A stretch of 64,000 nt of DNA from an uncultured Verrucomicrobiota bacterium (GTDB lineage Bacteria; Verrucomicrobiota; Verrucomicrobiia; Limisphaerales; UBA9464), in assembly GCA_903910585.1 (NCBI GenBank), contig CAIWAH010000379.1, positions 3,161 through 67,160 of the forward strand. The letters are read 5' to 3'. Position numbers and translations under genes: made by a program. Below the pieces are notes generated by a model. It was not told where the DNA came from and did no database searches. It saw nothing but the letters and a program-made list of their open reading frames with translations. Below, piece by piece: positions 27,272 through 43,525 of this stretch; the first letter of the stretch is position 1; each line of letters opens with the position of its first letter.

Positions 27272-30200
27272 TTATGTCGCCGCCCGCAGCCGCTCCAGCA
27301 GTTCGTCGAGCCGCTTGGGCGAGGCCGGCTTGGCGGTGCCGAGTTCCTGGGCGAACACCGACACCTTGTATTCCTCGACCAGCCAGCGGAACTCATCCGC
27401 GAGCTGCTGTCCTTCCGGCGTGGTGGGCGGCGTGGCCCGCAGGCGCTTCACCTCGGCGACGTAGGGTGCGACGAGTTTGACCCGTTCGGCCTCCTTGGGA
27501 GGATTGTTGGCCGCCCGCTCGATCCGCAGCATGAGCGCCTTGAGATAACGCGGCAGGTGCGGCAGTTGGGCGAACGGCACCTCCGCCAGAAACCGGCGCG
27601 GAACCAGCGCATCCACTTCCGCGGCGAATCCGGTTCCGGACGAGGCGGCGGGCTTGACCGCGGCGGCAGCGGGGCCAAGCAGCGCTCCAAGACTGTTGAG
27701 CTGGTTCAGTGACTTGAGCGGGGCGGCCGCTTTGGCGGCCGGTGCGGTGGCACCGACACCGGCGCGCTGGGCGGCCTGCTGGCGGAACTGGAGCACCTGC
27801 CCGACGCGGTCGATCAACTGGGCGGCGAGGCCCGGCAACTGGCGTTTGGCCGCGGCCACCGCCTCGTCGAAATTGGCGGTCGTCAGGCGGGACGGGAGTT
27901 CGGCTGGCAGGACCTGCCGCTTCAGGTTGAGCAGGGCGGTTTCCTGCAACTCGGCGCCACCGCCGATGGCGGCCGCGAGCGCCTCGAAGCGGACGAGGGC
28001 GCGCAGGTCGCGTTCGAGCCACGCGAAGTCCTTCTGCAGGGCAAGCTCCACCAGCCGTTGCCACGCCGGCAGACTCGCGCGTCGGGCGGCAACGCTGGAC
28101 GGGAACAGCCGCACGCCGACACCGGCCGCATCAAGCTGGAGTCCGGGGAAACCGAAAACCGGCAGGCCGTGCTGGTCGCCGGCGGGGATTTTTTCCGGCA
28201 GATCGCCGCACGAGAAGGTCGTGAGCCCGTCGCGTTGCCACTGGCGGGCGGCCTGTTTCCACGCGGCCGATTCGGTGGGCGGCGTGACCTTCACCTGGGC
28301 GAGGTGCTGCTTGAGCGCGCCGAAATCGCGGCCGGCAGCCACGGGTTTCGGGCCGTTGCCGATCAGCTCGATGCGCGGGCGCAGGTGGGCCGGCACGCCG
28401 TCGGTCCGCCACGCGTCGGACGGCACGGTGACCTGATACCGTTCGCGCAGGAACCGGCCCAACGAGTCATGGAACGACCCGCCGGCGGGACGGAAGTCGC
28501 GGACGATCTCCTGCACCTTGGGTTCGATGGGCAGCAGCTCGCGCCGGACGGCTTTGGGCAGCGAGCGCAGCAGTTCGTCCATCATCGCGGCCCGCAGCCC
28601 GGGCACGGACCATTCCAGCAGGGCCGGTGAAACGGCATCGGCCAGCGTGACCGGCAGCCGGATGGTGACGCCGTCGTGCTCCTCGCCGGGGGCATAGGCG
28701 TAGGCGAGCGGCACGGCCTGACCGCCGAACTCCAGCGCGTCGGGAAACGAGCGCGTGTCGAGCGCGAGGTCGCGGCCACCGCTGAGGTCGTCCTCGGTAG
28801 CGCACAGGGAAGCGGCCCGGCCCGGTTCACGCAGCCATCGAAGCAGTTCGTCACGCGACGAAATGTGCCGGAGCTTGCCGGCGTAGAATTTGAAGAGCGC
28901 GTCATCGAGATCGCCGAGGTCGTGGCGGCGCAGCCGGGTCTGCCAGCTTTCGACCTTCTCGCGCACGCGGCGGTTGCGGCTGAGGAAGCCGAGCCCGGAG
29001 GTTGAGGCAAGCTCAGGTGATGAATCAGAGCGACGGCGTTCGGTCACGGCCGATTGTCCTTCACCCCGATCTTCCGACCTCCGACTTCCGGCTTCCGACT
29101 TCCCACTTTCAACCTCGGTTTCGCCGCCGCGGCCACGGACCGGCGGTTCCAAATCCTCCTCCACCAGCGCCGAGCGGATGAAAATCGCGGTGGCGTCGTC
29201 GGGGTTCAGGTTTCCGTAGGCGACCTTGCGTCGGAATACCTCCAGCCCTTGGAAGCGCGTTATTTCCTCCACAAGCACGCGGCCGGCGCTCGCGCTCCAG
29301 TGCGGATGCTGGTGGCTGACCTGGCAGAGATGCGGCGCGAGCTGAACGATCCAGTGCGGATCAATCCCCGCGACCGTGCGCGCGTAGAGCTGCGAGGTTT
29401 CCACCAGTTCACCGGCCACCAGCCACTGCGGCTGATTCGACTTCGGCGCCGGCGCGGGATTCTTTTCGGGCCGGCTGTGACGTCCCTTGGTCGGCTTCTC
29501 GCCGCGTTCAAAGAGCGCGGAGCCGGGAAAGATGGTCACCTGGCGGTTGCCGCCGGCCTTGTAGAGGTTGCGCTCCTCGCGGGTGGAAACGTGTCCGAGC
29601 AGGCCGGCGAGAATGGAGCGGTGGATGGCCTGGTAAAGCTGTTCGTCCGTGCGGAGTTGTTTGTCCCTGGCCTCTCCAGGGTGGCTGGAAAGCCGCCCCT
29701 CCGAGTCTTGGAAGGCGCCGACGTTCTCCAGCGCGCCTTCGAGTTGGGCGTGGAGATCCTGCCACTCGCGCATCCGCAGGTAGGAGAGGAAGTGCTGCTT
29801 GCAGAACTTCCGGCGCGCGCCCTGCGTGCGGAGCGCTTCCCACTGGTCGTGAACCGCGCTCCACACGTTGAGCAGCGTGAGGAAGTCCGACTGCGGATGG
29901 CTGAAGCGCCGGTGCGCGACATCGGCGGCTTCGCGCTGGTCGAGCGGGCGTTCGCGCGGGTCCTGGATGCTGAGGCCGGCGGCGATGATGAGCAGTTCGC
30001 GCGTGCTCTGCTCCTGCTGCGCCTGGAGCAGCATCCGGCCCAGCGTGGGATCAATCGGCAGGCGGGCAAGGTCGCGTCCGAGGGGCGTCAGTTCGCGGGC
30101 GCCATCGAGCGCACCGAGTTCCTGGAGCAGCGCGTAACCGGCCTGGATTGCGGCCGGCGTGGGCGGCTGCACGAAGGCGAACGTCTCGATGTCGCCGAGC

Positions 30201-31741
30201 CGGAACGCCTTCATGCGCAGGATGACCTCGGCGAGGTTCGCTCGCTGGATTTCCGGCTGCGTGAAGGGCGGGCGCGCCTGGAAGTCCTCCTCCGAATACA
30301 GCCGCACGCAGACGCCGTCCTGCACGCGGCCGGCGCGGCCCTTGCGCTGGTTGGCGCTGCTCTGCGAAACGGGTTCGACCGGCAGGCGTTTGGTCCGGGT
30401 GCGCGCCGCGTAGCGGCTGATGCGCGCGAGGCCGGCGTCCACGACGTAGCGGATGCCGGTAATGGTCAGGGACGTTTCGGCGATGTTGGTCGCGATGACG
30501 AGCTTGCGGCGCGATGAGGGCGCGAACACGCGTTGCTGGTCGCCGGCGCTTAGGCGGCCGAACAGCGGCACAATCTCCGCCTCGCGGCCGAAGCGGCCTT
30601 CCAGTTGGTCGCTGGTCTCGCGGATGTCGCGCTCGCCCGGCATGAAGATCAGCACGTCGCCGAAGCTGGACTCGTAAAGGATCGTCTCCGCGGCCCGCAC
30701 CGCGGCGTCCACATAGGTCAGTTCACCGGAGCCGGCGCGCAGCGCGGCGCGGATGGAGGCGGTGAGTTGGAGTGTTTCGGAAGAGATGGCGCTGCGGGTG
30801 GGAAGCCCGCCCTCACTCCGGCCCTCTCCCCCGGGGAGAGGGGGTGGCGTCGCGACGTTGCCGCTTTGCTCTGAACTTAGGGGCAAGGTCAGCTCGTCGG
30901 CGGGCAGGCTGGCAGCCTGCCCTACGTTGTCCCATTCCTCCGTGTCCGCCTCGTGATCGTAGGGCGCGTAGATCACGTCCACCGGGAACATCCGGCCGGA
31001 CACCTCGATGATCGGCGCGTGGCCGAAGTGCCGGGAGAAGGCCTGCGTATCAATCGTCGCGGAGGTGACGACGAGCTTGAGGTCGGGCCGGCGGGCGAGC
31101 AGGCCCTTCAGGTAGCCGAGCAGGAAATCAATGTTCAGCGAACGCTCGTGCGCCTCGTCGATGATCAGCGCATTGTAGTCCGACAACAGCGGGTCGCCCT
31201 GCGTCTCGGCGAGCAGGATGCCGTCCGTCATCAGCTTCAGATACGTCTCGGAACTCGAATGGTCGTCGAACCGGATCTTGCAGCCCACTTCGCGGCCCCA
31301 GCGGACATTCAGCTCCTCGGCGATGCGCTGGGAGATGGACAGCGCGGCTACGCGTCGCGGCTGGGTGCAGCCGACCTTCGCCTCGATGCCCAGACCGGCC
31401 TCGAGGCACATCTTGGGAATCTGCGTGGTTTTGCCGGAGCCGGTTTCACCCGCGATGACGACGACCTGGTGCGCGCGGATGGCGGCGACGATCTCGTCCT
31501 TGCGCGCGGTGATTGGCAGGTCCGGCGGGTAAGTGACCGGCGGGACGTGCAAGCGGCGCAACTCGCGCAGTTCGGCCGATTGCCGGGCCTGGGTGAGCAG
31601 GCGATCCACGAGGGCGTCATGCTGCTCGGCGTGCAGACGGTCGCGCAGCACGCGGACGAGCCGCGAACCGAGCCGCACCCAGTCGTGCGTCATGGTCCGC
31701 GGCAGCAGCGCTTTCAGTTCCTCGACGCGGGCGTCGTTCAT
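27272..31741 (-). CDS. hrpA: ATP-dependent RNA helicase HrpA with in-frame repeat-derived insertions
   Basis: GETGSGKT, TQPRR, DEAHERS, SAT, TNIAETS and QRKGRAGR motifs; C-terminal EEYKVSVFAQELGT. 1489 aa. Confidence 0.95.
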   Translation of the reverse strand: MNDARVEELKALLPRTMTHDWVRLGSRLVRVLRDRLHAEQHDALVDRLLTQARQSAELRELRRLHVPPVTYPPDLPITARKDEIVAAIRAHQVVVIAGETGSGKTTQIPKMCLEAGLGIEAKVGCTQPRRVAALSISQRIAEELNVRWGREVGCKIRFDDHSSSETYLKLMTDGILLAETQGDPLLSDYNALIIDEAHERSLNIDFLLGYLKGLLARRPDLKLVVTSATIDTQAFSRHFGHAPIIEVSGRMFPVDVIYAPYDHEADTEEWDNVGQAASLPADELTLPLSSEQSGNVATPPPLPGGEGRSEGGLPTRSAISSETLQLTASIRAALRAGSGELTYVDAAVRAAETILYESSFGDVLIFMPGERDIRETSDQLEGRFGREAEIVPLFGRLSAGDQQRVFAPSSRRKLVIATNIAETSLTITGIRYVVDAGLARISRYAARTRTKRLPVEPVSQSSANQRKGRAGRVQDGVCVRLYSEEDFQARPPFTQPEIQRANLAEVILRMKAFRLGDIETFAFVQPPTPAAIQAGYALLQELGALDGARELTPLGRDLARLPIDPTLGRMLLQAQQEQSTRELLIIAAGLSIQDPRERPLDQREAADVAHRRFSHPQSDFLTLLNVWSAVHDQWEALRTQGARRKFCKQHFLSYLRMREWQDLHAQLEGALENVGAFQDSEGRLSSHPGEARDKQLRTDEQLYQAIHRSILAGLLGHVSTREERNLYKAGGNRQVTIFPGSALFERGEKPTKGRHSRPEKNPAPAPKSNQPQWLVAGELVETSQLYARTVAGIDPHWIVQLAPHLCQVSHQHPHWSASAGRVLVEEITRFQGLEVFRRKVAYGNLNPDDATAIFIRSALVEEDLEPPVRGRGGETEVESGKSEAGSRRSEDRGEGQSAVTERRRSDSSPELASTSGLGFLSRNRRVREKVESWQTRLRRHDLGDLDDALFKFYAGKLRHISSRDELLRWLREPGRAASLCATEDDLSGGRDLALDTRSFPDALEFGGQAVPLAYAYAPGEEHDGVTIRLPVTLADAVSPALLEWSVPGLRAAMMDELLRSLPKAVRRELLPIEPKVQEIVRDFRPAGGSFHDSLGRFLRERYQVTVPSDAWRTDGVPAHLRPRIELIGNGPKPVAAGRDFGALKQHLAQVKVTPPTESAAWKQAARQWQRDGLTTFSCGDLPEKIPAGDQHGLPVFGFPGLQLDAAGVGVRLFPSSVAARRASLPAWQRLVELALQKDFAWLERDLRALVRFEALAAAIGGGAELQETALLNLKRQVLPAELPSRLTTANFDEAVAAAKRQLPGLAAQLIDRVGQVLQFRQQAAQRAGVGATAPAAKAAAPLKSLNQLNSLGALLGPAAAAVKPAASSGTGFAAEVDALVPRRFLAEVPFAQLPHLPRYLKALMLRIERAANNPPKEAERVKLVAPYVAEVKRLRATPPTTPEGQQLADEFRWLVEEYKVSVFAQELGTAKPASPKRLDELLERLRAAT
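29071..29112. repeat. Heptamer tandem array (CTTCCGA consensus, 6 copies) inside hrpA
   Basis: CTTCCGA CCTCCGA CTTCCGG CTTCCGA CTTCCCA CTTTCAA; 42 nt in total. Confidence 0.75.
30810..30925. repeat. Two REPs (families 4 and 3) in frame inside hrpA
   Basis: CCCTCACTCCGGCCCTCTCCCCCGGGGAGAGGG at 30810-30842 and CGGGCAGGCTGGCAGCCTGCCCTAC at 30901-30925. Confidence 0.85.
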
Positions 31742-31797
31742 GCCGGAGCCGGGGAGTTTGACGGAAGCGCCGGGGCGGGGGAATGGGGAATGTGCGG

Positions 31798-33090
31798 CTA
31801 GTTCCGCCCGCTCAGTTTCAAGGCCGCCGCCAGCGTCTGCAGGTGGGCCGTGAGTTGGAAACGGTCCCGGAAGCGGTCGCGCAACCGGAGTCCATCCTCG
31901 TTCTGGACGACTTCGATCAACGCCCGCGCCGCGGCCGCCGGATCGCGCGGTTCCACGAGGCCGGCGTAGCCTTCGGGCAGCATCTCGGGAATGCCCCGCC
32001 AGCGCGTCGAAACGAGGGGCAGGCCGAACGCCATCGCCTCGATGAGGTTCAGGGGTTGGCCTTCGTTGGCGAAGTAGCTGGGGAACAGGAACACGTCGCT
32101 GTCGCGCAACGCGGCGGCCTTGGCCTCCGGCCCGAGGAAGCCGGTGTGGCTCACGCACGCGGCCAAGGCCGGATCGGTGAGCCGGCTTTTGAAATCCGCC
32201 TCCACGTCCGAGGTGGGGAAGGTTCCCGCCACCAGCAGCCGGAATTTCAACGGGCGAGGCAGCCGGGTCCCGAGTTCGCTGGCCAACCGGATGGCTTCGA
32301 CGGCGTCGAGCACGCCCTTGTCGCGCGAGCACAGGGCGAGGAACAGGACCTTTACCTCCACGGGGGTAGCCGTTTCGCCGCCCGGCGTGGCGCCGCAATC
32401 TGCTGGGAAGGCACCCCTCACCCCGTCCCTCTCCCCTCCTCCGAGGAGGGGAGAGGGTGCCCGAAGGGTGGGTGAGGGGTGGGAGCACCCCTGGTTCATG
32501 GGTAGGGTTTGGCGCTCCGCCAGTCGCCGCCGCCGATGTTCTGCCAGTGTCAGGTCAAACTCCGGGCACGGATCAGGAACGCCGTTGGGCACCACCGCGG
32601 TGCGCTGGGGGCGGAACCGGTCGGCATCGGGCTGATTGAAGCGCGACAACACGAGATTGAGCGCGGGCCGGCCCAGCAGGCGGTGCGAGAGGGCGCGTTC
32701 GAACGGATTGGCGACGTCTTCGAGCCATTGGCCGAGTCCGACGGCGTGCCAGTGGAAGATGACGTGGCGGAACCACGGCCGCAGCAGCGCGAGCACGATC
32801 CAGTCGCGGTAAAGCGAGTTCCGTTTCGGCGGGCTGGGCACGTAGTAGAGCGTGCGGACGTTGTGTTCGCGGCCCAGTCGTTTGGCCTCGCGGACGTAGG
32901 CGAGGAGCTTTTTCAGTTTGCCGCCGCGGGCCGAGCCGACATCGGTGAGGTCGTCCGAAAGCCGGGCGTCCACATGCAGCACCTCGATCCCGTGTGTCGG
33001 ATCGGCCCGGAAGCCGTCCACGAGATACTGCACCATCTGGCTTTGGCCATGGTGCGGCGGCGGGACGTGGGCGAAGACGACGAGCTTCAT
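31798..33090 (-). CDS. Glycosyltransferase family 4 with in-frame repeat insertion
   Basis: HFHWH-like HWH, VPNGV, KG and EGQPLNLIEAMAFG (Ex7E) motifs. Confidence 0.92.
   Translation of the reverse strand: MKLVVFAHVPPPHHGQSQMVQYLVDGFRADPTHGIEVLHVDARLSDDLTDVGSARGGKLKKLLAYVREAKRLGREHNVRTLYYVPSPPKRNSLYRDWIVLALLRPWFRHVIFHWHAVGLGQWLEDVANPFERALSHRLLGRPALNLVLSRFNQPDADRFRPQRTAVVPNGVPDPCPEFDLTLAEHRRRRLAERQTLPMNQGCSHPSPTLRAPSPLLGGGERDGVRGAFPADCGATPGGETATPVEVKVLFLALCSRDKGVLDAVEAIRLASELGTRLPRPLKFRLLVAGTFPTSDVEADFKSRLTDPALAACVSHTGFLGPEAKAAALRDSDVFLFPSYFANEGQPLNLIEAMAFGLPLVSTRWRGIPEMLPEGYAGLVEPRDPAAAARALIEVVQNEDGLRLRDRFRDRFQLTAHLQTLAAALKLSGRN
32411..32507 (-). repeat. Copy of the intergenic element 19577-19676, in frame within the glycosyltransferase
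   Basis: Reverse complement matches 19577-19676, with 3 mismatches over the ~73-nt palindromic core and a shared CCCTACCCATGAACC end. Confidence 0.9.
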
Positions 33091-33157
33091 CGCGGTGCGC
33101 GGCGGAGCCTGCACGGAAGGGTGGCAAAAGACGAAGCCGTTCGTGCACCGTCGGGCC

Positions 33158-33556
33158 ATGGCGGTGCGCGATTCCTACCGGGAATATGTCCTGGAACAGC
33201 TCGGCCGGGTGCGCCCGGTGACGTGGCGGAAGATGTTCGGCGGCGTGGGCCTGTATGCGGACGACCGCTTCTTTGCCCTGCTCGACAACGACACGCTCTA
33301 CTTCAAGACCGGCGACGCGAACCGGGCCGACTTTGAGGCCCGGGGAATGCCGCCGTTCCAGCCGTTTGGCCCGGGCACCAAGCCCATGGACTACCATGAG
33401 CTCCCGGGCGACGTGCTGGAAAACGTGGCCGAACTTGGGCGGTGGATCGCGAAGGCCGTCGCCGTGGCCGCGACCACCAAGACAAAGAAGCCCGCCCCGA
33501 AGCGCCCTAAGGCGGCTCCGAAGCGGGCCGGAAAGACCAAAGGCGACAGGTCCTAG
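33158..33556 (+). CDS. TfoX/Sxy N-terminal domain protein
   Basis: RKMFGGVGLY...LYFK...PF...MDY motifs; Lys-rich tail. Confidence 0.9.
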   Translation: MAVRDSYREYVLEQLGRVRPVTWRKMFGGVGLYADDRFFALLDNDTLYFKTGDANRADFEARGMPPFQPFGPGTKPMDYHELPGDVLENVAELGRWIAKAVAVAATTKTKKPAPKRPKAAPKRAGKTKGDRS

Positions 33557-33598
33557 CGCGGTCAGCGGAACCTGTCGCCCGGTCATCACCCCGACGAA

Positions 33599-33976
33599 TC
33601 AGGGACTCGCCGGCGTGACCGAAATCTTCGTGGCCTCCTTGGTGGAGAAAATATACCGGGCCTCGACCCAGTCCCCGAGCTTCACTTCGGCGAAGCCGCC
33701 GCTGCCGGACAAGAACGAGAACTTCGTCGCCGAGGTGACCTTCAGCTGGCCGGAGCCGTAGTAGGAGGCGCCCACGGTGAGGGTGCCGGCGCTGTGGCTG
33801 ATCGCGGTGACATAACCGGTGACGCGCGACTCGACGACCTTCGGGACATCCACGCTGCCGCCACCGCCGCCGCTCCCGCCCTTCGCCCACAGGGCGGTGG
33901 AGGCGGTGAGCACGAGGGCGGCGAGGGCAAGACGCGTCGTCAGGCGGGAGACGCTACCGGTTTGGACTGGGTTCAT
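33599..33976 (-). CDS. Small secreted protein, DUF5666-like
   Basis: Signal peptide, Gly linker, and GYVTAI...VTSATKF...LGDWVEA...ATKI pattern. Confidence 0.6.
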   Translation of the reverse strand: MNPVQTGSVSRLTTRLALAALVLTASTALWAKGGSGGGGGSVDVPKVVESRVTGYVTAISHSAGTLTVGASYYGSGQLKVTSATKFSFLSGSGGFAEVKLGDWVEARYIFSTKEATKISVTPASP

Positions 33977-34289
33977 TGGTTGGCTTCGTGATGTGGATCC
34001 CGGTTTCCGAACTTTGGTCGGGCCCAGTGATCCGATGTGTGCCGGGTTCATTCCCGACGCCCCGCCGTTTGCATCCGTCGTGCCAACGCGGAATTCGGGC
34101 CCAATTGGTCCGCCCCCGAACCGTTCTTCGGTCAGTGGCGGCGAATTGGTCCGGCCCCGCTCGAAATCGTGGTCCGGAACTGCGGCGCCGGACCAGCTGG
34201 CCAAGCGGATCGGTCGAAGCGGCTCCGGTTGGAATCGGCAGGGCGGAAATCAAATCGCCGGGCGGTCGGAGTTCCTTAGGCTGGCCGCC

Positions 34290-35234
34290 ATGACTGAACC
34301 GGAACGGCAGGCGATCCTGGAGATCTGTTTTCACGCGGCGCTGGCGGACGGCCGCAAATCCGCGGCGGAGCACGCGGCGCTGGAACGGGCGGCGCAACGC
34401 CTCGGACTGGTTCTGCCGGCTGATCTGAATTCGGCCGGCGATCTTTATGCCCGCTCCCAGGCGGTGGCGGCGGTGGCCGGACGCGTGGGCGATCGGGCTT
34501 CGGCCCGGCTGGCATTTGAACTCGCGGTGGCGATCTGCGAAGCCGACGAGGCGCCGAATCCGGCCGAACGCTGGTTTCTTGAGGAACTCCGGCGCGCTCT
34601 CGGACTCGAGGCAGCCGCGGCGGCGGAAACCGTGCGGCGTGCGGAGGAACTCACCTCGGCGGCGGTGCCTGTCCCGATGGCTTCGCCCACGTCGTCCGCC
34701 GAACGGGATCCCTTGGGCGTCAATGCCGCGGAACTCGACCAATTGATCCAGAACCGGGCGATTTTGGCCGGCGCGCTGGAATTGCTTCCCGACACCCTGG
34801 CCACGATGGCGATCGTGCCGGTGCAGATGCAGCTCGTTTACCAGATCGGCAAGGCCCACGGCTATGAGCTGGACCGCGGACACATTCGCGACCTGCTAGC
34901 CACCGTCGGGGTTGGCCTCGCGTCGCAGGTAGTCGAAAGTTACGCGGAACGGGCGGTCCGCGGCCTGCTGGGCAAGTTCGCTGGCGGCTGGGTCACCGGC
35001 ATGGCCGGGCAATTGACCAGCTCCGGGCTGTCGTTTGCGACCACCTATGCGCTTGGTCAACTGGCCCGGCAATACTACGCCGGTGGCCGCACGTTGGATG
35101 CGATCCAGCTTCGGTCGCTTTACGGGAAGCTGCTGGGACAGGGCCGCAGCCTTGAACCGGGATTGGCCAGCCGGATCCGTGAGCAGGCCGGTCAGGTGAA
35201 TCTGGGCCGGCTGACGTCGCTGCTGAAACTGTGA
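34290..35234 (+). CDS. TerB-like N-terminal domain fused to a DUF697-like domain
   Basis: AALADG...E and ICEAD...AERWFL (TerB-like); AIVPVQMQLVYQIGKAHG and ATTYALG (DUF697-like). Confidence 0.7.
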   Translation: MTEPERQAILEICFHAALADGRKSAAEHAALERAAQRLGLVLPADLNSAGDLYARSQAVAAVAGRVGDRASARLAFELAVAICEADEAPNPAERWFLEELRRALGLEAAAAAETVRRAEELTSAAVPVPMASPTSSAERDPLGVNAAELDQLIQNRAILAGALELLPDTLATMAIVPVQMQLVYQIGKAHGYELDRGHIRDLLATVGVGLASQVVESYAERAVRGLLGKFAGGWVTGMAGQLTSSGLSFATTYALGQLARQYYAGGRTLDAIQLRSLYGKLLGQGRSLEPGLASRIREQAGQVNLGRLTSLLKL

Positions 35235-35258
35235 CGGCGCGCCGACCGCAGCCGTGAA

Positions 35259-35651: not shown

Positions 35652-35758
35652 TGAGGCGGCAAGATGCCGAAAAGCCCGACGAAGGGAAATCTGTTTGTCC
35701 GGTCCGTGGAGGGCGGGGGGGAGCCGCCGTCATTCCGCCGTAACCCCCGCGGGGACCG

Positions 35759-36820
35759 TCAGTGAACGCGGGTGACCTGGATCTGCTTCAGGTCGGCAAT
35801 GCCGAGTTCGATGAGCTCGGCGTTGAGGTAGAGTTCGGTTTTCACCGGCTTTTCCCCTTCGTATTTCACCGCGGTGCGGGCCTGCGTGATGTTGTCGAGG
35901 GCCAGGGCGTCGAGGGCGACCAGATCGCGGCTGAAGCGGAGTTCGTTGAGGGCCACCGCGTAATGGAGCATCGGCTGGTCTTCCCCGCGGAACTGGCAGA
36001 TCAGCGCGTCGCCGACCCCAAGGACGACCTTGGGCATCAGGTCGTCCAGCGCGCAGATGTCGGGCACCGCCTCGGCCAGCAATCCGGCGTCGTTCGCGAA
36101 CCGCAGGGTGTTGTCCACGCTCGCGAAGGCCAGCCCGGCGAGGTGCCCGTGGACCGCCGTCACGCTGTGGCTGAGCACCGGGGCGACGCTGACGATCTTG
36201 GTGATCCGGCCGGTCAGCAGCCGGGAAACGTGGGAGCGGCGGGAAACCTTGGTCTTGTCCGTGCGGTCAAATTCGAGGTCGCCGGCGACCAGGCGTCCGA
36301 GCACGGGCGATTCGTAGGATTTCTCGGCATCCCAGCCCGCCGTTTCCGCCGCCACGCATTCGACGCCGAGTTCGGCGGCGAGCGAAAACCAGCCGGCAGG
36401 CCGGAGATCCACCTCCCGTTTGTCCCAGATGATGATCCGGGACGCCGGGTGGCCGGCGGCGAGCAGCGATTCGATCAGCGCCCGCACGACGGCGGGGCGG
36501 GTGCCGCTCAGGGCGCCGGGGGCGGAGACGACCTTGAAACCGACCACGTCGTTGGCGGTGACCAGCGTTCGCCAGGCCGCGGTAGTGTTGGTCGCCGCGG
36601 TGAAGGCCAGCAGGCCCTGCTCCACCATCTGCCGGACCACCGGGAATACCGGCGCAAAGGCGACCACCGCGGCGGCATCCTGCACGGTGAGCACCGCGGC
36701 CCGGGGCCGGTTGGTGTCGCCGGGCGAGGCGAACGCCGGCCGGTTGACCATTCCGATCAGGCCAAGCAGCAGCCACCAGCGTCCGATGATTCCGAAGCGT
36801 CCCATGCGCGGGCGGGACAA
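35759..36820 (-). CDS. DUF362 domain-containing secreted protein
   Basis: Signal-like N-terminus; DVVGFKV, IIIWD, SRDLVALD and ELGIADL patterns. Start may be 36805. Confidence 0.6.
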   Translation of the reverse strand: MSRPRMGRFGIIGRWWLLLGLIGMVNRPAFASPGDTNRPRAAVLTVQDAAAVVAFAPVFPVVRQMVEQGLLAFTAATNTTAAWRTLVTANDVVGFKVVSAPGALSGTRPAVVRALIESLLAAGHPASRIIIWDKREVDLRPAGWFSLAAELGVECVAAETAGWDAEKSYESPVLGRLVAGDLEFDRTDKTKVSRRSHVSRLLTGRITKIVSVAPVLSHSVTAVHGHLAGLAFASVDNTLRFANDAGLLAEAVPDICALDDLMPKVVLGVGDALICQFRGEDQPMLHYAVALNELRFSRDLVALDALALDNITQARTAVKYEGEKPVKTELYLNAELIELGIADLKQIQVTRVH

Positions 36821-36942
36821 TGGCCGTTCTGGCGGGGGGACGCAAAGGGGAGACTCGCTGCCTCCGGCATATCAAGTTCCTGCGGCCCGGGCCGATACTC
36901 AGGCGGGAACCGACCCGGGGACGCCGGGGTCGGCCCCGCCGC

Positions 36943-39636
36943 ATGCTGCATCCGTCCAACTTTGCCCCGGGAGCCATGCCGGTCGCCGCGTGGTCGGCCG
37001 CCGGCGGAATCCGTCCGGCGACGTGGCTGCTGTTTGATCGTTCCGGCAACTGCATTGATGCGCTCGTGGAGAACCCGGCCGTGCTGACGACCGGTGCGGC
37101 CGACGTGCTGGGCCGGCCGTTCCAAAAGTTGTTGCCGGCCGCGGTGGTGCCGTTGGCGGAAGGCCTTTGGGCCACACTGCGGGCGGGCGGACAGCCGGGC
37201 CCCGTCTCGTGTGTCCAGGAATTCGGCGGCGAGGCCGGGCGCACCGAGATTTCCCTCAGCCCCAGTGCGGCGGGCAATGTCCTGGTCCATTTCCGCGAAG
37301 CCCGCCGGCAGGAAACCAATCCGGGCGCGGACCCCAACCGGCGGCTGCTGCTGGCCGTGCAGGCGGCCCGTCTGGGCATCTGGGAATGGGACCTCGCCAG
37401 TGGCAAAATCGCGTGGGACGCGGGCATGGCCAGCATTTACGGGCTGCCCAATGGCGGGGCCGATCCGTCCGGCTGGCAGTGGGAACGCTGGGTTCTGCCC
37501 GACGATTTGCCCGAAGCCGCCGCGGCGCTGAACCGGGCCCTGGAAGATTCCCTGGCCAGCCGGTTCCGGCAGGCGTTTCGCATCCGCCGGCCCGATGGCA
37601 TGGTGCGTTCGGTGCGGAGCCATGGTGTGATCGAACGCGACGGTTACGGACGCGCCGTCCGGGTCACCGGGATCAACACCGACATCACCGAGGAACACTC
37701 GCTTCAGGAAGACCTTGAGCGCGCCTCGACCCGCTTGCAGACCGCGACCGCGGCGCTTTCACTGGGCATCTGGGAACTCGACCCGGCGACGGGATTGGAG
37801 ACCTGGGATGACCGCACCCTGGCGCTGTTCGATGTGAACCGGGCGCAGTTCACGTCGGCGCGGGACGTCTGGTTCCTGCGGGTCCATCCGGAAGACCGCG
37901 AAGCGGGCTGGGAAACCCGGATCGGTTCCCTCGCCCAGCCGTCCGTTGGCCATTTTGAGCAGAGTTTCCGCGTCCTGACGGCGGCGGGCGAGACCCGTTG
38001 GCTGCGAAGTTCGGCGAACATCCAGCGTCGGTCCGACGGCACGGCGGTCCGCGTGGTCGGGGTCAATTCCGACATCACCGAACAGCAGGTCGCGGCCGAA
38101 CGCCTTTCCGATCTTTCCAACCGCCTTCTGCTGGCCCAACGCGCCGGCGGACTGGGCGTGCTGGACTGGGACATCACGGCCGACCGCATGCTGTGGAACG
38201 ACCGGATGTTTGAGCTGTTCGATGTGCCACATCCCTCGTCGGCCGACGTCGTGAACGCCCGCAACCTGTGGCGCAGCCGGCTGCATCCGGAAGATGCCGA
38301 GGCCGCCGAGCGCGACCTGCAGGATGCCGCCGAGGGGCGCCGCCGCTACGATGCCGAGTTCCGCCTCCTCACCCGTTCCGGCGAAACCCGCCATCTCAAG
38401 GGCGACGCTCTCGTGGAAACCGACGCCGACGGAACGCCCCGCCGCCTGGTGGGTGTGTATCACGACGTCACCGGCGCCGTGGAAGCCCGGAACCGCCTGC
38501 GTCAGGATGCGGAAATCCTCCGGCAAGTCGGCGAACTCGCGCACATCGGTGGCTGGGAATTTCAGCCGCAATCCGGCCGCCTGTGGTGGAGCGAGGAGGT
38601 TTTCCGCCTGCATGAACTTCCTCCGGGGCGCCAGCCCGGATTGGAAGAGGCATTCCGCTTCTTCACCGAAGAGGCGGCGGCCAAGGTGCGCGGCGCGTTT
38701 GGCCGCCTTTGTGCCACCGGCGAGGCCTTCGACCTGCGGGTGCCGTTCATCACCGCCAACGGCCGTCCGTGCTGGGTCCGGGTGATCGGCCGGGCCGAGC
38801 TGAAGCTGGGCCGCGTGCTCCGGGTTTATGGAACGCTTCAGGATGTTTCCGCCGAGAAGCATTCGGAGCAGGCCCTCATCACCGCCCGCGAAGCGGCCGA
38901 GGCGGCCAGCCGCGCCAAGAGCGAATTCCTCGCCACCGTCAGCCACGAACTCCGGACGCCGCTCAACGGCATTCTCGGCTTCACGCAGTTGCTGGAGGAT
39001 TCGGAGCTGTGCGAGGCCGACCGCGAATACGTCCGCTTCATCACCACCGCGGGCGAGGCGCTGCTCGGCATCATCAGCGACCTGCTGGACTTCTCCCGCA
39101 TCGAGGCCGGCCGGCTGACGCTGGAATACAGCACCTTCGCGGTCCCCGCGCTCCTGCAGGAATCGCTCGAACTGATCCGGCCCCGCGCCCGCGAAAAGGG
39201 ATTGGAGCTGAAGCTCTCCGTGGATCCTTCGGTGGGCATCATGCGGGGCGACCGCTGCCGGCTGCGGCAGATCACGCTCAACCTGCTGAGCAACGCGGTG
39301 AAATTCACCGAAAACGGAGCCGTGAGCCTCCGCTGCACCCCCTATGTGGCCGGGCACATCAAGGTGGACGTGACCGACACCGGCATCGGCATTCCGGCGG
39401 ACAAGCAGGACCGGCTGTTCCAGCGCTTCAGCCAGGCCGACAGTTCGACGACGCGGAAATTCGGGGGCACCGGCCTCGGTCTCGCCATCTGCAAACAGCT
39501 GCTGGAGAAAATGGGCGGGCAGATCGGTCTTCAGAGCGACCCGGGTCACGGCTCAACCTTCTGGTTCATCATCCCGGTGCGCCCGCCGGAATCCGGCCAG
39601 GAAGAGGTGCCCGAGTTGGAGATCGAAGGCCAGTAG
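36943..39636 (+). CDS. Multi-PAS cytoplasmic sensor histidine kinase
   Basis: Four GxWEW/F...HPED-type PAS/PAC units, SHELRTPL, NAVKFT, DTGIG and GTGLGL motifs; no TM or receiver domain. Start uncertain (36943 or 36976). Confidence 0.92.
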   Translation: MLHPSNFAPGAMPVAAWSAAGGIRPATWLLFDRSGNCIDALVENPAVLTTGAADVLGRPFQKLLPAAVVPLAEGLWATLRAGGQPGPVSCVQEFGGEAGRTEISLSPSAAGNVLVHFREARRQETNPGADPNRRLLLAVQAARLGIWEWDLASGKIAWDAGMASIYGLPNGGADPSGWQWERWVLPDDLPEAAAALNRALEDSLASRFRQAFRIRRPDGMVRSVRSHGVIERDGYGRAVRVTGINTDITEEHSLQEDLERASTRLQTATAALSLGIWELDPATGLETWDDRTLALFDVNRAQFTSARDVWFLRVHPEDREAGWETRIGSLAQPSVGHFEQSFRVLTAAGETRWLRSSANIQRRSDGTAVRVVGVNSDITEQQVAAERLSDLSNRLLLAQRAGGLGVLDWDITADRMLWNDRMFELFDVPHPSSADVVNARNLWRSRLHPEDAEAAERDLQDAAEGRRRYDAEFRLLTRSGETRHLKGDALVETDADGTPRRLVGVYHDVTGAVEARNRLRQDAEILRQVGELAHIGGWEFQPQSGRLWWSEEVFRLHELPPGRQPGLEEAFRFFTEEAAAKVRGAFGRLCATGEAFDLRVPFITANGRPCWVRVIGRAELKLGRVLRVYGTLQDVSAEKHSEQALITAREAAEAASRAKSEFLATVSHELRTPLNGILGFTQLLEDSELCEADREYVRFITTAGEALLGIISDLLDFSRIEAGRLTLEYSTFAVPALLQESLELIRPRAREKGLELKLSVDPSVGIMRGDRCRLRQITLNLLSNAVKFTENGAVSLRCTPYVAGHIKVDVTDTGIGIPADKQDRLFQRFSQADSSTTRKFGGTGLGLAICKQLLEKMGGQIGLQSDPGHGSTFWFIIPVRPPESGQEEVPELEIEGQ

Positions 39637-39697
39637 CCGCCCCATTTGCGGGCTCGCCAAGGTGGCTTTGAGGCGCAGACTGACGGCACTCTGCCGT

Positions 39698-42600
39698 ATG
39701 TTTCGCCCGTTGCTGTTTCTCCTGCTTGCGCTCGGATGGGTCCGGTCGGTGCCGGTTCGGGCCGCCCTGCCGACCGAAGGCAACTTCGCGCGCACCAACC
39801 TCGTCGCGTGGTGCATCGTGCCGTTCGACTCGCAGAAGCGCGGCCCCGAGGAACGCGCCGCCATGCTCGACCGCCTCGGCGTGAAGCGCCTCGCCTACGA
39901 CTGGCGCGCGGAGCACATCCCGACCTTTGACGCGGAAGTGGCGGCGATGCGGCGGCACGGCATCGAGATCACCGCGTGGTGGTTCCCCGCCGCCTTGAGC
40001 GACGAAGCGAAGGCCATCCTCGCCTGCCTCGAACGGAACCGGATTCACCCGCAGCTTTGGGTCACGATGGGCACCGAGCCCGAGCCCGACGCCGCCAAAC
40101 TGGCCGCGAAGCGCGACGGCGCCGTCCAGACGCTCGCACCGATCTGCGCCGCGGCCGCCAAGCTGGGCTGCACCGTGGCGCTCTACAATCACCTCGGCTG
40201 GTTCGGCGAGCCGGCGAACCAGGTCGCCATCATCAAAAAGCTCCAAGCCGTCGGGCACACCAACGTGGGCATCGTATACAACTTCCACCACGCCCACAGC
40301 CACTTGGACGACTTCGCAGAGCAGCTTCGCCTGATGCAGCCGCACCTGCTCGCCCTGAACCTCAACGGCATGGTCTGGGAGGGCGACAAGGCCGGGAAAA
40401 AGATCATCCCACTCGGCACCGGCGACGAAGAGCTGCGCCTGCTCCAGATCGTGAACGCCAGTGGCTGGCACGGTCCGGTCGGCATCATCGGCCACACCGA
40501 GGAGGATGCCGAGGTGAAGCTGAAGAAGGAACTGGCTGGCTTGGAGAAACTCGCGCCACTGGTGACGCAGGCGCCCCCACCGGTGCCAGCACGCAAGAAG
40601 TCCGTGGCCAGTGTAGGGCAGGCTGCCAGCCTGCCCGCGATGGGTCCTGCCGTCGTGCCCGGAAAGTCCGGCCCTGCGCTCGATGCCCGCGTGCAGGGCT
40701 TGGTGCTGGACGGCAAACCGTGGTTCCGGAAGCCGCCGCTGCGCGTGGCCGCCCGCGTGCGGCTGGGGAGCAAGTCGCAGTTCAACATCATCGCCGCGAG
40801 CGAGGCCAAGTCCTCGCCCACGCACTGGGAGCTCTACACCTACGCCGGCACCGGCGAACTGAGCCTTTTCCTGTCCGGCGCGACGCCCGCCGAGTTGCGC
40901 TCGGGCAAGGACATCTGCGATGGCCAGTGGCATTCGGTCGTCCTGCATTACTCCACGGAAGCCGTCCGGCTGTCGGTGGATGGACGCGAAATCGTCCGGG
41001 GGGCCATCCAGCGGAGCGCCGTCCCCGACGGCAGTGCGGCGCAGATCGCGGTCGGGCGGTTGGTCGAAGGCGGTCTCGGCTGCGACGGCCTGATCGAGGA
41101 TCTCGTGCTGAATGACCAGTCCAGCGGCAAGGGCGAGACGCTCTCGTTGACTCCGTGGCGGCGACCCGACGGTGTCATCGCCGACTTGGCCGCGCTCCCG
41201 GCGGTCACCACCCCCGCGGTCGGCGGCAACCAACCGTTGGTGAAGGCCAAGCCGAAGGCCGCCGCCGGCGAGCCTGCGATCTCCGGCCGTGAACCCGGCT
41301 CGCAAGGCGAGAAGGACTGGGTGGACAACCGCTGGCAGGACACGGACGTGGGACCGTTCCTCGCCTCGAACCTGCGCCTGCCCGACGGCTCGGTGATCGC
41401 CAAGGCGCTGACGATCCGCGTCGGCGAGAAAGGAGAAGGCGCGGTCGTTTACGACACCGAAACCTGCACGCTGCGCGCCGCGTGGACAGGCGGGTTCCTG
41501 AAGTTCGATGCGGGGCGTTTCGGGTTGATTGGGATGCCGCGTGCAACGGGAACCAACATCATCATGACCTCGCCGACACCTGGTTGGAAAGGCGGCAAGG
41601 TGCAGTTCTTGGGACTGAGAAATGATACTCCTGTCCAGTTGATCTATCGGGTCGGCGAAACAGTTGTTCGAGAAACCGTAATTGGGTTCGCCGGGACAAA
41701 CCACTTTACGATTGCCCGCACACTGGATGTCCCGACCGAGACGAAGGCGCTGAGTCTGTCGTTACTCGACGGCCCTGCCATGGTGACGACGCTTGGCGAC
41801 GCGGGATACGGCTGGTTGTCGGCCCAACAAACTGCGACTGGGTCGGTTAATGTCATATCGGACATTGCGCCGCTAACTACCAACAGCACTGGTGGCTTAA
41901 GTTGCCAGTTCAAGGCTGACCGCCTCCACACCCAAACCAACTTTCTCCAACTGATCACTTATCGTCCCGAAGTCTTGGCATCGAATTGGCGTGATCGTCA
42001 GAAATTGTCGGACTCAGTCTGGGCGGAGTTCTTGCGAGGCCAAGTCGAGGGCGACTTTCCGAAGTTGGGTAAGTTTCAGAGCGGAAAGTCTGGTGTCTCG
42101 ATTGCTTCCCGCTGGCCCACCCTCACCACCCGCGGCCAGCGCGGAGCCGACACCGAATTCCTCGCGGTGGACACGCTCACGCTGCCTTACGACAACCCAG
42201 CCAAGGCGCTCCTGTTCGTCTCGGGCATCGACTTCACGCCGGACGGCGCGGGCTACGTCTGCACGATCCACGGCGACGTGTGGCGCGTGACGGGCATTGA
42301 CGATGGGCTGCTCGAGTTGAAGTGGCAGCGCTACGCCACGGGCCTGTTCCAACCGCTCGGCCTCAAGGTGCGCGATGGCAAGGTCTTCGTGCTCGGCCGC
42401 GACCGCATCACGCGCCTGCACGACGAGAACGGCGATGGCGAGGCCGACTTCTACGAGAACTTCCACGATGGCATCGCCACCTCGACCGGCGGGCACGATT
42501 ACGTGACCTGCCTGGAGACGGATGCCGCGGGCAACTTCTACTACACCGACCCGTTGGGACTGCGCCGCGTGGCCGCCGACGGCAGCCGCCAGGAGCTTTT

Positions 42601-43525
42601 GGCGACGGGCTTCCGCAACCCGAACGGAATGGGCGTGCGGCCTGATGGCAAGGTCTTCACCGCCGCGCCACAGCAGGGCACCTGGACGCCGTCGTCGGGT
42701 ATCTGGGAGGTGCGGCCGGACACCGTGGGGCTCTACGGCGGCTACGGCGGGCCGAAGGTCACCCCGGCACGTCCGCTCGGCTACGACGCGCCGCTCTGCT
42801 GGATTCCCCACGCGGTGGACAATTCGAGCGGTTCGCAGGTGTGGATTCCACCCGGGCAATGGGGTCCGCTGGGCGGCCAGATGCTGCACCTGCTCTGGGG
42901 GCGTTGCGGGATGATGCTCGTGATGCGGGATGAGGTGGGCGGCTCTGCGGGCGGGGGCGCCCGCAGCACGATCACCGGCGAGGGCGCCGGTGCCACTACG
43001 GTGGTGAACGGCGCCGTCGTGCCGCTGCCGGTGAAGTTCCTCAGCGGGCCGAACCGTGCGACCTTCAACCCCAGGGACGGCGCGCTCTACGTGGCCGGCA
43101 GCACCGGTTGGCAGACCAGCGCGGTGAAGGACGGTGCGCTCCAGCGGGTCCGTTACACCAACCGCACCCCCAGCCTGCCCGTGCGCTGGGCCGTGAAGCC
43201 CGGCGGCCTGGAGGTCACCTTCACGCGGCGCGTTGATCCCAAAACCGGCAACGACCCCGGCAGCTACAGCTTCAAGCAGTGGAACTACCGCTACGCCGAA
43301 CAATACGGCTCCAAAGACTGGTCGGTGGCCGATCCGCAAAAGGAAGGGCGCGACGAACTGGTCATCCGGTCCGCCAAGGTGGACGGAGGCGGACGGACCG
43401 TGTTCCTCGAAATCCCCGAGCTGAAGCCCGTGATGCAGTTCGAGCTGAAATACAACGTGGACGGCGAAATGGGCGGCAAACCCCTGCGAGGCTCATTCTG
43501 GGGCTCGATCAATCGGATTCCGTAA
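39698..43525 (+). CDS. Large secreted multidomain protein (TIM barrel, LamG-like, DUF6797-like region, beta-propeller)
   Basis: Signal peptide; YNHLGW and YNFHH (isomerase-like TIM barrel); DGQWHSV...LSVDG (LamG); DENGDGEADFY and GFRNPNG (propeller). Confidence 0.75.
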   Translation: MFRPLLFLLLALGWVRSVPVRAALPTEGNFARTNLVAWCIVPFDSQKRGPEERAAMLDRLGVKRLAYDWRAEHIPTFDAEVAAMRRHGIEITAWWFPAALSDEAKAILACLERNRIHPQLWVTMGTEPEPDAAKLAAKRDGAVQTLAPICAAAAKLGCTVALYNHLGWFGEPANQVAIIKKLQAVGHTNVGIVYNFHHAHSHLDDFAEQLRLMQPHLLALNLNGMVWEGDKAGKKIIPLGTGDEELRLLQIVNASGWHGPVGIIGHTEEDAEVKLKKELAGLEKLAPLVTQAPPPVPARKKSVASVGQAASLPAMGPAVVPGKSGPALDARVQGLVLDGKPWFRKPPLRVAARVRLGSKSQFNIIAASEAKSSPTHWELYTYAGTGELSLFLSGATPAELRSGKDICDGQWHSVVLHYSTEAVRLSVDGREIVRGAIQRSAVPDGSAAQIAVGRLVEGGLGCDGLIEDLVLNDQSSGKGETLSLTPWRRPDGVIADLAALPAVTTPAVGGNQPLVKAKPKAAAGEPAISGREPGSQGEKDWVDNRWQDTDVGPFLASNLRLPDGSVIAKALTIRVGEKGEGAVVYDTETCTLRAAWTGGFLKFDAGRFGLIGMPRATGTNIIMTSPTPGWKGGKVQFLGLRNDTPVQLIYRVGETVVRETVIGFAGTNHFTIARTLDVPTETKALSLSLLDGPAMVTTLGDAGYGWLSAQQTATGSVNVISDIAPLTTNSTGGLSCQFKADRLHTQTNFLQLITYRPEVLASNWRDRQKLSDSVWAEFLRGQVEGDFPKLGKFQSGKSGVSIASRWPTLTTRGQRGADTEFLAVDTLTLPYDNPAKALLFVSGIDFTPDGAGYVCTIHGDVWRVTGIDDGLLELKWQRYATGLFQPLGLKVRDGKVFVLGRDRITRLHDENGDGEADFYENFHDGIATSTGGHDYVTCLETDAAGNFYYTDPLGLRRVAADGSRQELLATGFRNPNGMGVRPDGKVFTAAPQQGTWTPSSGIWEVRPDTVGLYGGYGGPKVTPARPLGYDAPLCWIPHAVDNSSGSQVWIPPGQWGPLGGQMLHLLWGRCGMMLVMRDEVGGSAGGGARSTITGEGAGATTVVNGAVVPLPVKFLSGPNRATFNPRDGALYVAGSTGWQTSAVKDGALQRVRYTNRTPSLPVRWAVKPGGLEVTFTRRVDPKTGNDPGSYSFKQWNYRYAEQYGSKDWSVADPQKEGRDELVIRSAKVDGGGRTVFLEIPELKPVMQFELKYNVDGEMGGKPLRGSFWGSINRIP
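40613..40638 (+). repeat. Family-3 GTAG REP in frame in an interdomain linker
   Basis: GTAGGGCAGGCTGCCAGCCTGCCCGC is identical to the reverse complement of 30900-30925. Confidence 0.88.
42945..42996. repeat. Tandem REP-like hairpins in frame in the propeller region
   Basis: Perfect stems CTGCGGGCG-GGGG-CGCCCGCAG (42945-42966) and CACCGGCG-AGGG-CGCCGGTG (42973-42992), each followed by a CAC-containing tail. Confidence 0.7.

What the first reader, a model, noticed from the sequence alone, without database searches (positions are those of the whole stretch)
29680..43000. REP palindromes domesticated as in-frame protein insertions in several unrelated genes
Seen: an identical 26-nt GTAG REP is read as VGQAASLPA in both hrpA (30900-30925) and the secreted protein (40613-40638), with an intergenic variant at 19431. 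A family-4 REP is in hrpA, a 97-nt element is in the GT4 gene, and twin hairpins are at 42945-42996. All ORFs stay open with catalytic motifs intact. REPs are by definition extragenic; the known parallel is Rickettsia palindromic elements, which insert in frame. Inference: RAYT-type mobilisation here generates new peptide loops, at a density of five or more events in three genes within 14 kb.
Basis: partly seen in the sequence, partly recalled or inferred. Interest (0 to 1): 0.8.

Follow-up and report, generated by a model that had tools for sequence, protein, structure and literature searches.

The report
Mobile palindromes translated inside working genes
Short selfish DNA palindromes (REP elements and similar hairpin repeats) sit in frame in flexible linkers of a helicase, a sugar transferase and a secreted protein of a lake Verrucomicrobiota bacterium; this habit is already described for related bacteria, so it is real but not new.

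Summary
An identical 26-nt GTAG-tagged REP lies in hrpA (30900-30925, minus strand) and in a 1287-aa secreted protein (40613-40638). Both copies are read VGQAASLPA. A second hairpin family lies in hrpA and in the GT4 gene, and twin hairpins lie at 42945-42996. Orthologue alignments show that all five are lineage-specific in-frame insertions in linkers or loops. They are present, absent or different among species of the same genus.

Genome-wide the REP core has 67 copies, and at least 21 are inside real genes (UvrA twice, DnaE, ValRS, ClpB, KsgA and others). Nearly all of these are in one reading phase.

Nothing shows domestication: the REP-coded peptides evolve about neutrally and turn over. 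Intragenic GTAG REPs were described in 2013 (Di Nocera et al., PMC3733652), with most cases in the verrucomicrobium O. terrae. I therefore class this as a new member of a known kind.

One extra result goes beyond the finding. The cognate RAYT transposase, with its flanking REP dimers, sits in frame inside a SNF2 helicase gene on another contig. Two of five congeners share the insert, and it is under purifying selection (dN/dS about 0.11). This scan has noted the same habit on other genomes. I found no paper that describes it.

The parts
27272..31741 (-). hrpA (DEAH-box RNA helicase HrpA), 1489 aa from the ATG at 31741
   Evidence: TIGR01967 1216 bits, above its cut-off. Pfam finds DEAD, Helicase_C, HA2, OB_NTP_bind and DUF3418. 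It aligns to E. coli HrpA 6zwx.
30728..30937 (-). lineage-specific insert of about 70 aa between the RecA1 and RecA2 domains of HrpA
   Evidence: Absent from 13 of 19 aligned HrpA proteins (all 13 from other genera). Present but different in 4 congeners and in G029. 76 query residues stand against 5 residues of E. coli HrpA. The helicase core is 430 aa here against 360-367 aa in those 13.
30900..30925 (-). 26-nt GTAG REP read VGQAASLPA in hrpA
   Evidence: It is found only in this genome's hrpA among the 6 sequences that carry an insert. The hairpin folds at -12.2 kcal/mol, z = -3.9.
30805..30842 (-). second-family hairpin element (CCCTCTCCCC/GGGGAGAGGG plus a GTGAGGG-type tail), read PLPGGEGRSEGG
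   Evidence: Shared with the 4 congeners, and partly deleted in L003.
31798..33159 (-). GT4 glycosyltransferase gene
   Evidence: Pfam Glyco_trans_1_4 and Glycos_transf_1 at residues 270-431.
32359..32517 (-). insert of about 53 aa in the interdomain linker of the GT4 protein
   Evidence: Absent in 10 of 10 other-genus orthologues and in congener G001. Between the same anchors there are 84 nt in G001, 222 nt here, and 165, 240 and 297 nt in three other congeners.
   Evidence: Arms 12/12 and 15/15 nt, 100% complementary. Fold -33.2 kcal/mol, z = -4.3. Missing from the otherwise matching insert of congener G002.
39662..43525 (+). 1287-aa secreted protein (xylose-isomerase-like TIM barrel, LamG, DUF6797, C-terminal propeller-like part)
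   Evidence: Pfam and translation.
40613..40638 (+). 26-nt GTAG REP read VGQAASLPA in the linker between the TIM barrel (residues 129-295) and LamG (362-482)
   Evidence: Shared with congener G001, absent in G013 and G014. Other congeners carry other palindromes at the same linker.
42945..42996 (+). twin hairpins, a 16-aa in-frame insert (SAGGGARSTITGEGAG...)
   Evidence: Shared with G001, absent in G002, G004 and 4 other genera. The second hairpin has 17 loose copies genome-wide.
19431..19456 (+). intergenic variant of the GTAG REP (GGCAG head, 2 core mismatches)
   Evidence: No coding frame spans it with positive scores on both sides.

Best explanation
The window's three genes carry copies of selfish palindromic repeats, and these copies are translated. 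One family is a GTAG-type REP. It often occurs as head-to-head dimers (REPINs), and its cognate RAYT (HUH/Y1 tyrosine transposase) is present in the genome. The other families are GC-rich hairpin elements of the MITE or REP kind.

Shown here: the elements are multi-copy, and they are lineage-specific in-frame insertions in interdomain linkers or loops. The host genes keep open frames and their motifs. The inserts are gained, lost or replaced among species of one genus.

Inferred: copies are spread by the RAYT on single-stranded DNA and land anywhere. Those that land in genes persist only if they add no stop, keep the frame and fall in a tolerant linker. This filter would also explain the near-exclusive use of one reading phase (VGQAASLP on the GTAG strand, GRLAACPT on the other). 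The peptides are most likely neutral, floppy passengers and not adapted loops.
For: Repeat family:
- 67 core copies genome-wide, against 0 expected by chance in the window.
- 16 head-to-head dimers hold 32 of the 67 copies.
- A RAYT is flanked on both sides by these dimers.

Insertions, by orthologue alignment:
- hrpA: 13 of 19 sequences lack the insert.
- GT4: 11 of 15 lack it.
- Secreted protein.
- Position in HrpA: between RecA1 and RecA2, from the alignment to 6zwx.

Genuine host genes: at least 21 of 67 copies lie in coding frames. 18 come from my codon-score classifier and 3 more from the SNF2 frame. All 10 further host ORFs that I scanned have Pfam domains: ValRS, DnaE, ClpB, two UvrA, KsgA, an FtsX permease, an acyltransferase/AMP-ligase, an NHL propeller and a GSDH/HEAT/cytochrome c protein.

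Frame use: of the 18 classified copies, 10 read VGQAASLP, 7 are in the GRLAACPT phase and 1 is in another phase. Most dimers have 3-4 stop-free frames.

Neutrality: REP-dimer segments give dN/dS 0.10-1.58 (5 of 6 pairs at 0.43-1.58), against 0.06-0.26 for the flanking SNF2.

Precedent: Di Nocera 2013, PMC3733652.
Against: - No expression or protein data. Removal at the RNA or protein level is not excluded.
- The classifier is home-made and conservative: it calls only 1053 of 2000 random windows coding. The assembly (411 contigs) breaks at repeats, so the coding fraction is uncertain in both directions.
- Transposition by the RAYT is inferred from association only.
- The second hairpin family and the twin hairpins have no identified transposase.
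- The frame bias could also reflect a target-site preference, which I could not test.
- The AlphaFold model of the HrpA core is poor (mean pLDDT 56.4). Its coil prediction for the insert (residues 206-263, pLDDT below 50) is therefore weak support.
Confidence: 0.85

Rival explanations
1. Domesticated loops: the REP-coded peptides were recruited for a function in the host proteins.
For: The GTAG REP in the secreted protein and the twin hairpins are kept in frame in two species, G000 and G001. One reading phase is used almost exclusively.
Against: The inserts are absent, different or partly deleted in other congeners. REP-dimer codons evolve at dN/dS 0.10-1.58, with 5 of 6 pairs at 0.43-1.58. 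The same peptide occurs in unrelated proteins with no common function.
Confidence: 0.07
2. The elements are removed before the protein is made (RNA-level excision or protein splicing), so they never appear as peptide loops.
For: Nothing direct. The elements are strong hairpins, and no transcript or peptide covering them was seen.
Against: Pfam finds no intein or Hint domain in HrpA, the secreted protein, GT4 or the SNF2 protein. No Rfam family, introns included, reaches threshold in 19000-44000. The strict in-frame, stop-free state and the phase bias are what translation would select and what excision would not require.
Confidence: 0.04
3. The host genes are decaying pseudogenes, or the inserts are assembly artefacts at repeats.
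For: The genome is a fragmented assembly of 411 contigs. Logan contigs of public runs break at the repeats.
Against: The frames are open over 1287-1489 aa with motifs intact. The same inserts occur in independently assembled congeners. One contig of a run from another study bridges 30824-30923 with 2 differences (record 21). The flanking codons have positive coding scores.
Confidence: 0.04

Closest known systems
Intragenic GTAG-tagged REPs (Di Nocera, De Gregorio, Rocco 2013, BMC Genomics 14:522, PMC3733652)
   Same: GTAG-headed short palindromes, often in dimers and associated with RAYT genes. They are inserted in frame in known genes, many for DNA repair and RNA helicases. Most cases are in the verrucomicrobium O. 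terrae, and both of its uvrA genes are hit, as here.
   Different: A different organism (an uncultured lake Verrucomicrobiota genome) and, as far as I can tell, a different REP sequence. I could not see their Additional file 3 (the list of hit ORFs), because supplements are closed. Presence/absence among congeners and the phase bias are measured here.
Rickettsia palindromic elements (RPE; Ogata et al. 2000, named from memory; cited as refs 13 and 14 in PMC3733652)
   Same: Palindromic repeats inserted in frame in functional protein genes and read as extra peptide segments.
   Different: From memory, RPEs are longer (about 100-150 nt), AT-rich and have no associated transposase. Here the main element is 26 nt (about 95 nt as a dimer), GC-rich, and has a cognate RAYT. 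No sequence relation was tested.
REPIN-RAYT systems / REPtrons (Nunvar 2010; Bertels and Rainey 2011; Ton-Hoang 2012; names from memory and from the text of PMC3733652)
   Same: A REP family with head-to-head dimers, and a single RAYT gene flanked by the same REPs.
   Different: Here at least 31% of the detected copies are genic. The RAYT is not a free-standing gene: it lies in frame inside a SNF2 helicase gene.
REPs inserted in frame within tnpAREP genes (Quentin et al. 2018, PMC6006769, subclass 2.4)
   Same: REP insertions that keep the reading frame. The RAYT signatures NH[IFV]H, WQ and YIxNNP resemble NHVH, WQ and YIRSNP here.
   Different: That paper set aside unexpectedly long TnpA proteins as 'gene fusions or annotation errors'. 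The embedded state seen here was therefore not studied there.

Membership tests
GTAG-type REP / REPIN | Short (20-40 nt) GC-rich imperfect palindrome with a GTAG head | tested here: met
   26 nt, 9-bp stem, 3-nt loop, GTAG head. -11.5 to -12.2 kcal/mol, z = -3.4 to -3.9.
GTAG-type REP / REPIN | Many dispersed copies in the genome, often as inverted dimers | tested here: met
   67 core copies on many contigs. 16 head-to-head dimers hold 32 of them.
GTAG-type REP / REPIN | A RAYT gene flanked by the same REPs | tested here: met
   G000:C46 has REP dimers at 23173/23241 and 23896/23964 on either side of a Y1_Tnp match at 23604-23816.
GTAG-type REP / REPIN | Extragenic location | tested here: not met
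   At least 21 of 67 copies lie in coding frames. The literature already accepts intragenic REPs, so this does not exclude membership.
GTAG-type REP / REPIN | Mobilised by the RAYT (cleavage and joining at the REP) | not testable with these tools
   Association only.
RAYT (REP-associated tyrosine transposase) | HUH motif and catalytic Tyr, with a family profile match | tested here: inconclusive
   NHVHAL and EEYIRSNP are present. Pfam Y1_Tnp scores 32.6 bits, above its cut-off of 23. NCBIfam REP_Tyr_transpos scores 50.9 bits, below its cut-off of 80 but well above IS200 at 19.8. phmmer finds no PDB hit.
Rickettsia palindromic elements | In-frame insertion into functional ORFs | tested here: met
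Rickettsia palindromic elements | Sequence or family relation to the RPE consensus | not tested
Inteins / self-splicing introns (considered) | Intein (Hint) domain or a known intron RNA family | tested here: not met
   No such Pfam domain in the four host proteins. No Rfam match in 19000-44000.
HrpA | Equivalog profile above its cut-off, with DEAH helicase motifs | tested here: met
   TIGR01967 1216 bits against 722.75. Motifs. Alignment to 6zwx.

The most novel reading that the evidence does not exclude
In this lineage the REP system's own transposase lives inside host genes. A complete RAYT of about 209 aa, with a REP dimer on each side, is read in frame between motifs I and Ia of a SNF2 helicase (G000:C46). 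No start or stop codon is visible at its ends in the translation.

Two of five congeners share the insert, and the RAYT part is under purifying selection. Related RAYTs sit the same way in RecG, a UDPGP-like protein, DinG/Rad3, methylases, MetH and AlaRS of other Verrucomicrobiota and Planctomycetota.

The boldest reading is an intein-like lifestyle: the transposase is expressed as an internal domain of a housekeeping protein, and it is protected from loss because an imprecise deletion would kill the host gene. The small in-frame REPs of the window would then be the non-autonomous side of the same habit.
Probability: 0.5. Interest if true: 0.8.

Novelty: new member of a known kind. Interest (0 to 1): 0.4.

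Why it matters
The window gives a clean case, checked against congeners, of how selfish palindromes add peptide segments to essential proteins and how fast those segments turn over. That is useful for annotation, because such stretches are not errors, and for understanding linker tolerance. The phenomenon itself has been in print since 2013.

The wider point lies outside the window. The transposase that presumably spreads these REPs is embedded in frame in a helicase gene and is conserved by selection. If it is translated as part of the host protein, that would be an undescribed way for a transposase to persist. It would also be a natural set of large domain insertions in helicases that could be tested directly.

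Tried and rejected
- Public runs. 20 runs hold part of 30400-31400, mostly lake and freshwater metagenomes kept as contigs. The contigs break at the repeats. One DNA contig (X7, record 21) bridges 30824-30923. One RNA-library contig (X17) covers only 30400-30543. Another (X15) covers 30951-31399 at about 95% identity and also matches the second-family hairpin from other loci. None spans the GTAG REP, so transcription through the insert is neither shown nor excluded. A single X1 joint that skips 30832-30898 has only 21 letters on its shorter side, and I give it no weight.
- AlphaFold2 of the HrpA core on a 19-row alignment gave a poor model (mean pLDDT 56.4). I did not run fold searches on it.
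- phmmer of the RAYT against PDB sequences found nothing at E up to 0.01.
- Rfam at gathering thresholds found nothing in 19000-44000.
- In one search the automatic ORF pick took the wrong segment for 5 of 12 loci (L079, L081, L084, L085, L086). I dropped those rows and read the window's own peptide.
- The script stopped on an index error after 11 of 14 targets. I went on with the first 10.
- I considered a possible third hrpA insert (SEDRGEG region, near 29000). That loop is variable in all species. Only congener G001 has a clear multi-repeat insert there, so I do not count it as an event in this window.
- Literature searches for a RAYT embedded in a host gene gave no such description. The library lacks most subscription journals, and supplements were closed.
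Full report
WHAT IS THERE

The window is G000:C379:3161-67160 of a 5.33-Mb assembly with 411 contigs and 65.6% G+C. The closest named relatives of one of its proteins are uncultured Verrucomicrobiota. Public runs that hold the stretch are mostly lake and freshwater metagenomes.

The 26-nt GTAG-headed palindrome lies at 40613-40638 (+) and, as its exact reverse complement, at 30900-30925. A variant lies at 19431-19456. The 19-nt core with up to 2 mismatches has 3 sites in the window, against 0.00 expected in 100 shuffles. It has 67 sites in the genome. 32 of those sites form 16 head-to-head dimers, mostly 89-95 nt from GTAG to CTAC. This is a REP/REPIN family.

THE GENES

- 27272-31741 (-) is hrpA. 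It scores 1216 bits on TIGR01967, above the cut-off, and has the Pfam helicase domains. The longer open frame up to 32488 overlaps the neighbouring gene and is not part of hrpA.
- 31798-33159 (-) is a GT4 glycosyltransferase.
- 39662-43525 (+) is a 1287-aa secreted protein with a TIM barrel, a LamG domain and DUF6797.

The helicase and GT4 motifs are intact.

ARE THESE INSERTIONS?

hrpA. I aligned 19 orthologues from the genus, family and order.
- 13 of them, all from other genera, go straight from RecA1 to RecA2. Their helicase core is 360-367 aa.
- This genome has 430 aa, its four congeners 420-464, and G029 422.
- Against E. coli HrpA (6zwx), 76 residues here stand where the structure has 5.
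- At the DNA level the insert holds the GTAG REP (only in this genome) and the CCCTCTCCCC/GGGGAGAGGG element (shared by the congeners, half-deleted in one).
- The congeners carry a second, inverted copy of that element and other sequence where this genome has the REP.

GT4. 10 of 10 other-genus orthologues and congener G001 lack the insert. Between the same anchors there are 84 nt in G001, 222 nt here, and 165, 240 and 297 nt in the three other congeners. The nested palindrome at 32412-32481 is missing from the otherwise matching insert of G002.

Secreted protein.
- The REP lies in the linker between the TIM barrel and LamG. It is shared with G001, which has a further partial copy, and is absent in G013 and G014.
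- G002 and G004 carry other palindromes at the same linker. One of them is a long near-perfect palindrome. G003 lacks it and G005 has a remnant.
- The twin hairpins add 16 aa. They are shared with G001 and absent in G002, G004 and four other genera (5 mis-extracted rows dropped).

GENOME-WIDE

I trained a codon log-odds score on 1136 long ORFs. I called a copy coding only if one open frame spans it with at least 50 codons and a positive score on both sides. This is conservative: 1053 of 2000 random windows pass.
- 18 of 67 REP copies pass. Three more lie in the same SNF2 frame, which gives at least 21 of 67.
- The 10 other host ORFs all have Pfam domains: ValRS, DnaE, ClpB, two UvrA paralogues, KsgA, an FtsX permease, an acyltransferase/AMP-ligase, an NHL propeller and a GSDH/HEAT/cytochrome c protein.
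- Of the 18 classified copies, 10 read VGQAASLP, 7 are in the coupled phase GRLAACPT and 1 is in another phase. Two further stop-free phases are unused, although dimers mostly have 3-4 open frames of six.
- By my own arithmetic, 15 of about 16 insertion events in one phase at a chance of one half gives about 3 in 10,000. The event count is mine and approximate.
- The second family has 60 oriented copies, and 6 are classed coding.
- Contig breaks at repeats and the strict classifier make all of these fractions rough.

HOW IT MOST LIKELY WORKS

A RAYT flanked by this REP family exists, so RAYT-type spread is the natural inference, but it is not shown. Copies in genes would persist only where frame, stop-freedom and structure allow. 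Turnover among congeners and near-neutral dN/dS of REP-dimer codons point to tolerated passengers and not to domesticated loops. Those REP-dimer values are 0.10-1.58, with 5 of 6 pairs at 0.43-1.58, against 0.06-0.26 for the flanking SNF2.

WHAT IS KNOWN

Di Nocera et al. 2013 (PMC3733652; abstract, passages and section 16 read) report the following.
- GTAG and CGTC REPs occur inside genes in several species.
- Both O. terrae uvrA genes are hit, and RNA helicases are hit.
- More than half of the inserts are dimers that encode 20-30 aa.
- The authors argue that the inserts lie in flexible linkers or loops.

The finding is therefore a new member of a known kind. This scan has reached the same verdict on other genomes.

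BEYOND THE WINDOW

The RAYT match at G000:C46:23604-23816 lies in a 1466-aa open frame that is a SNF2 helicase. The translation reads: motif I (GLGKT), a REP dimer, about 209 aa of RAYT (NHVHAL, EEYIRSNP), a REP dimer, then motif Ia (LVVCPTTL). No start or stop codon is visible at the ends of the RAYT part. Two more REP dimers lie elsewhere in the same gene.
- G001 and G003 share the insert with open frames. Congeners G005 and G002 and 8 other genera lack it.
- dN/dS of the RAYT part is 0.106-0.191 over 209 codons.
- Full-length relatives lie inside RecG (G001), inside a UDPGP-like protein (G005, G002, G004, G001, G029), and inside one more long ORF of G007.
- A search restricted to long proteins found 677 with E up to 1e-10. 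Of the 120 listed, most are DinG/Rad3 helicases of about 955 aa. Others are SNF2, Eco57I-type methylases, MetH, AlaRS and Dtd. Some are named by JGI as both helicase and RayT.
- Of 80 loci in species-representative genomes, 12 are embedded, 64 look free-standing and 4 are fused on one side only. The embedded ones include most of the closest relatives.
- Quentin et al. 2018 set aside over-long TnpA proteins as fusions or annotation errors (PMC6006769, passages).
- Four literature searches found no description.
- Earlier notes of this scan describe the same habit in SNF2 and PriA on other genomes. I reached it independently here, before that look-up.

VERDICT

This is a new member of a known kind, of modest interest in itself. 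The embedded RAYT is the part worth following up.

Noticed in passing
G000:C46:20898-25295 (other contig; loci L057, L058): A SNF2 helicase gene carries a complete RAYT with a REP dimer on each side, in frame between motifs I and Ia. It also has two more in-frame REP dimers. G001 and G003 share the RAYT insert, and the RAYT part has dN/dS 0.11-0.19.
   Followed up: yes
L076 (G001:C283), L072-L075 and L077 (G005, G002, G004, G029, G001), L078 (G007:C117): Full-length RAYTs lie embedded in frame in RecG, in a 1100-1500-aa UDPGP-like protein, and in a further long ORF. Each is flanked by repeated peptide segments that look like REP dimers. From memory of the TPxWIV and DPAxGSGH motifs, the G007 host looks like a DNA methyltransferase. 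Pfam named only Y1_Tnp there.
   Followed up: partly
one search hit list (P0004-P0123): 677 long proteins contain this RAYT. Most of the 120 listed are DinG/Rad3 helicases of about 955 aa from Verrucomicrobiota. That suggests an old, conserved helicase-RAYT architecture and not only recent insertions.
   Followed up: no
G000:C46, RAYT part against its SNF2 flanks: Synonymous divergence of the RAYT between G000 and G001/G003 (dS about 1.24) is more than twice that of the flanking SNF2 codons (0.43-0.57). Between G001 and G003 it is lower than that of the flanks (0.11 against 0.31-0.37). The insert and the host gene may have different histories (re-invasion or conversion).
   Followed up: no
L018 (G001 hrpA), loop between the OB domain and DUF3418: Congener G001 has an insert of more than 150 aa with several copies of the GEGRGEG-type element and a duplicated block, at a loop that is short and variable in all other HrpA proteins aligned.
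   Followed up: no
L026 (G004) and L024 (G002), the linker corresponding to window 40600-40640: Other palindromes occupy the same linker in congeners. These are the GGAGCGCC...GGCGCTCC type, long and near-perfect in G004, with a remnant in G005 and an empty site in G003.
   Followed up: partly
G000:C411:15533-16327: A free-standing RAYT-like ORF of 265 aa is flanked by a different palindrome family (GGAGCGCGGCTCTCTGAGCCGCG type). This looks like a second REPtron in the genome.
   Followed up: partly
window 32380-32488 (-), the 5' extension of the hrpA open frame: The first 37 or so residues of the spurious 1738-aa frame match six other places in the genome. This is the second-family palindrome of the GT4 gene read in another frame, which shows how such repeats create look-alike 'proteins'.
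   Followed up: partly
G000:C256:41964-45161 and G000:C391:7817-11230: Both UvrA paralogues carry in-frame copies of the REP (a dimer in C256). This is the same pair of genes reported as hit in O. terrae by Di Nocera et al. 2013.
   Followed up: partly
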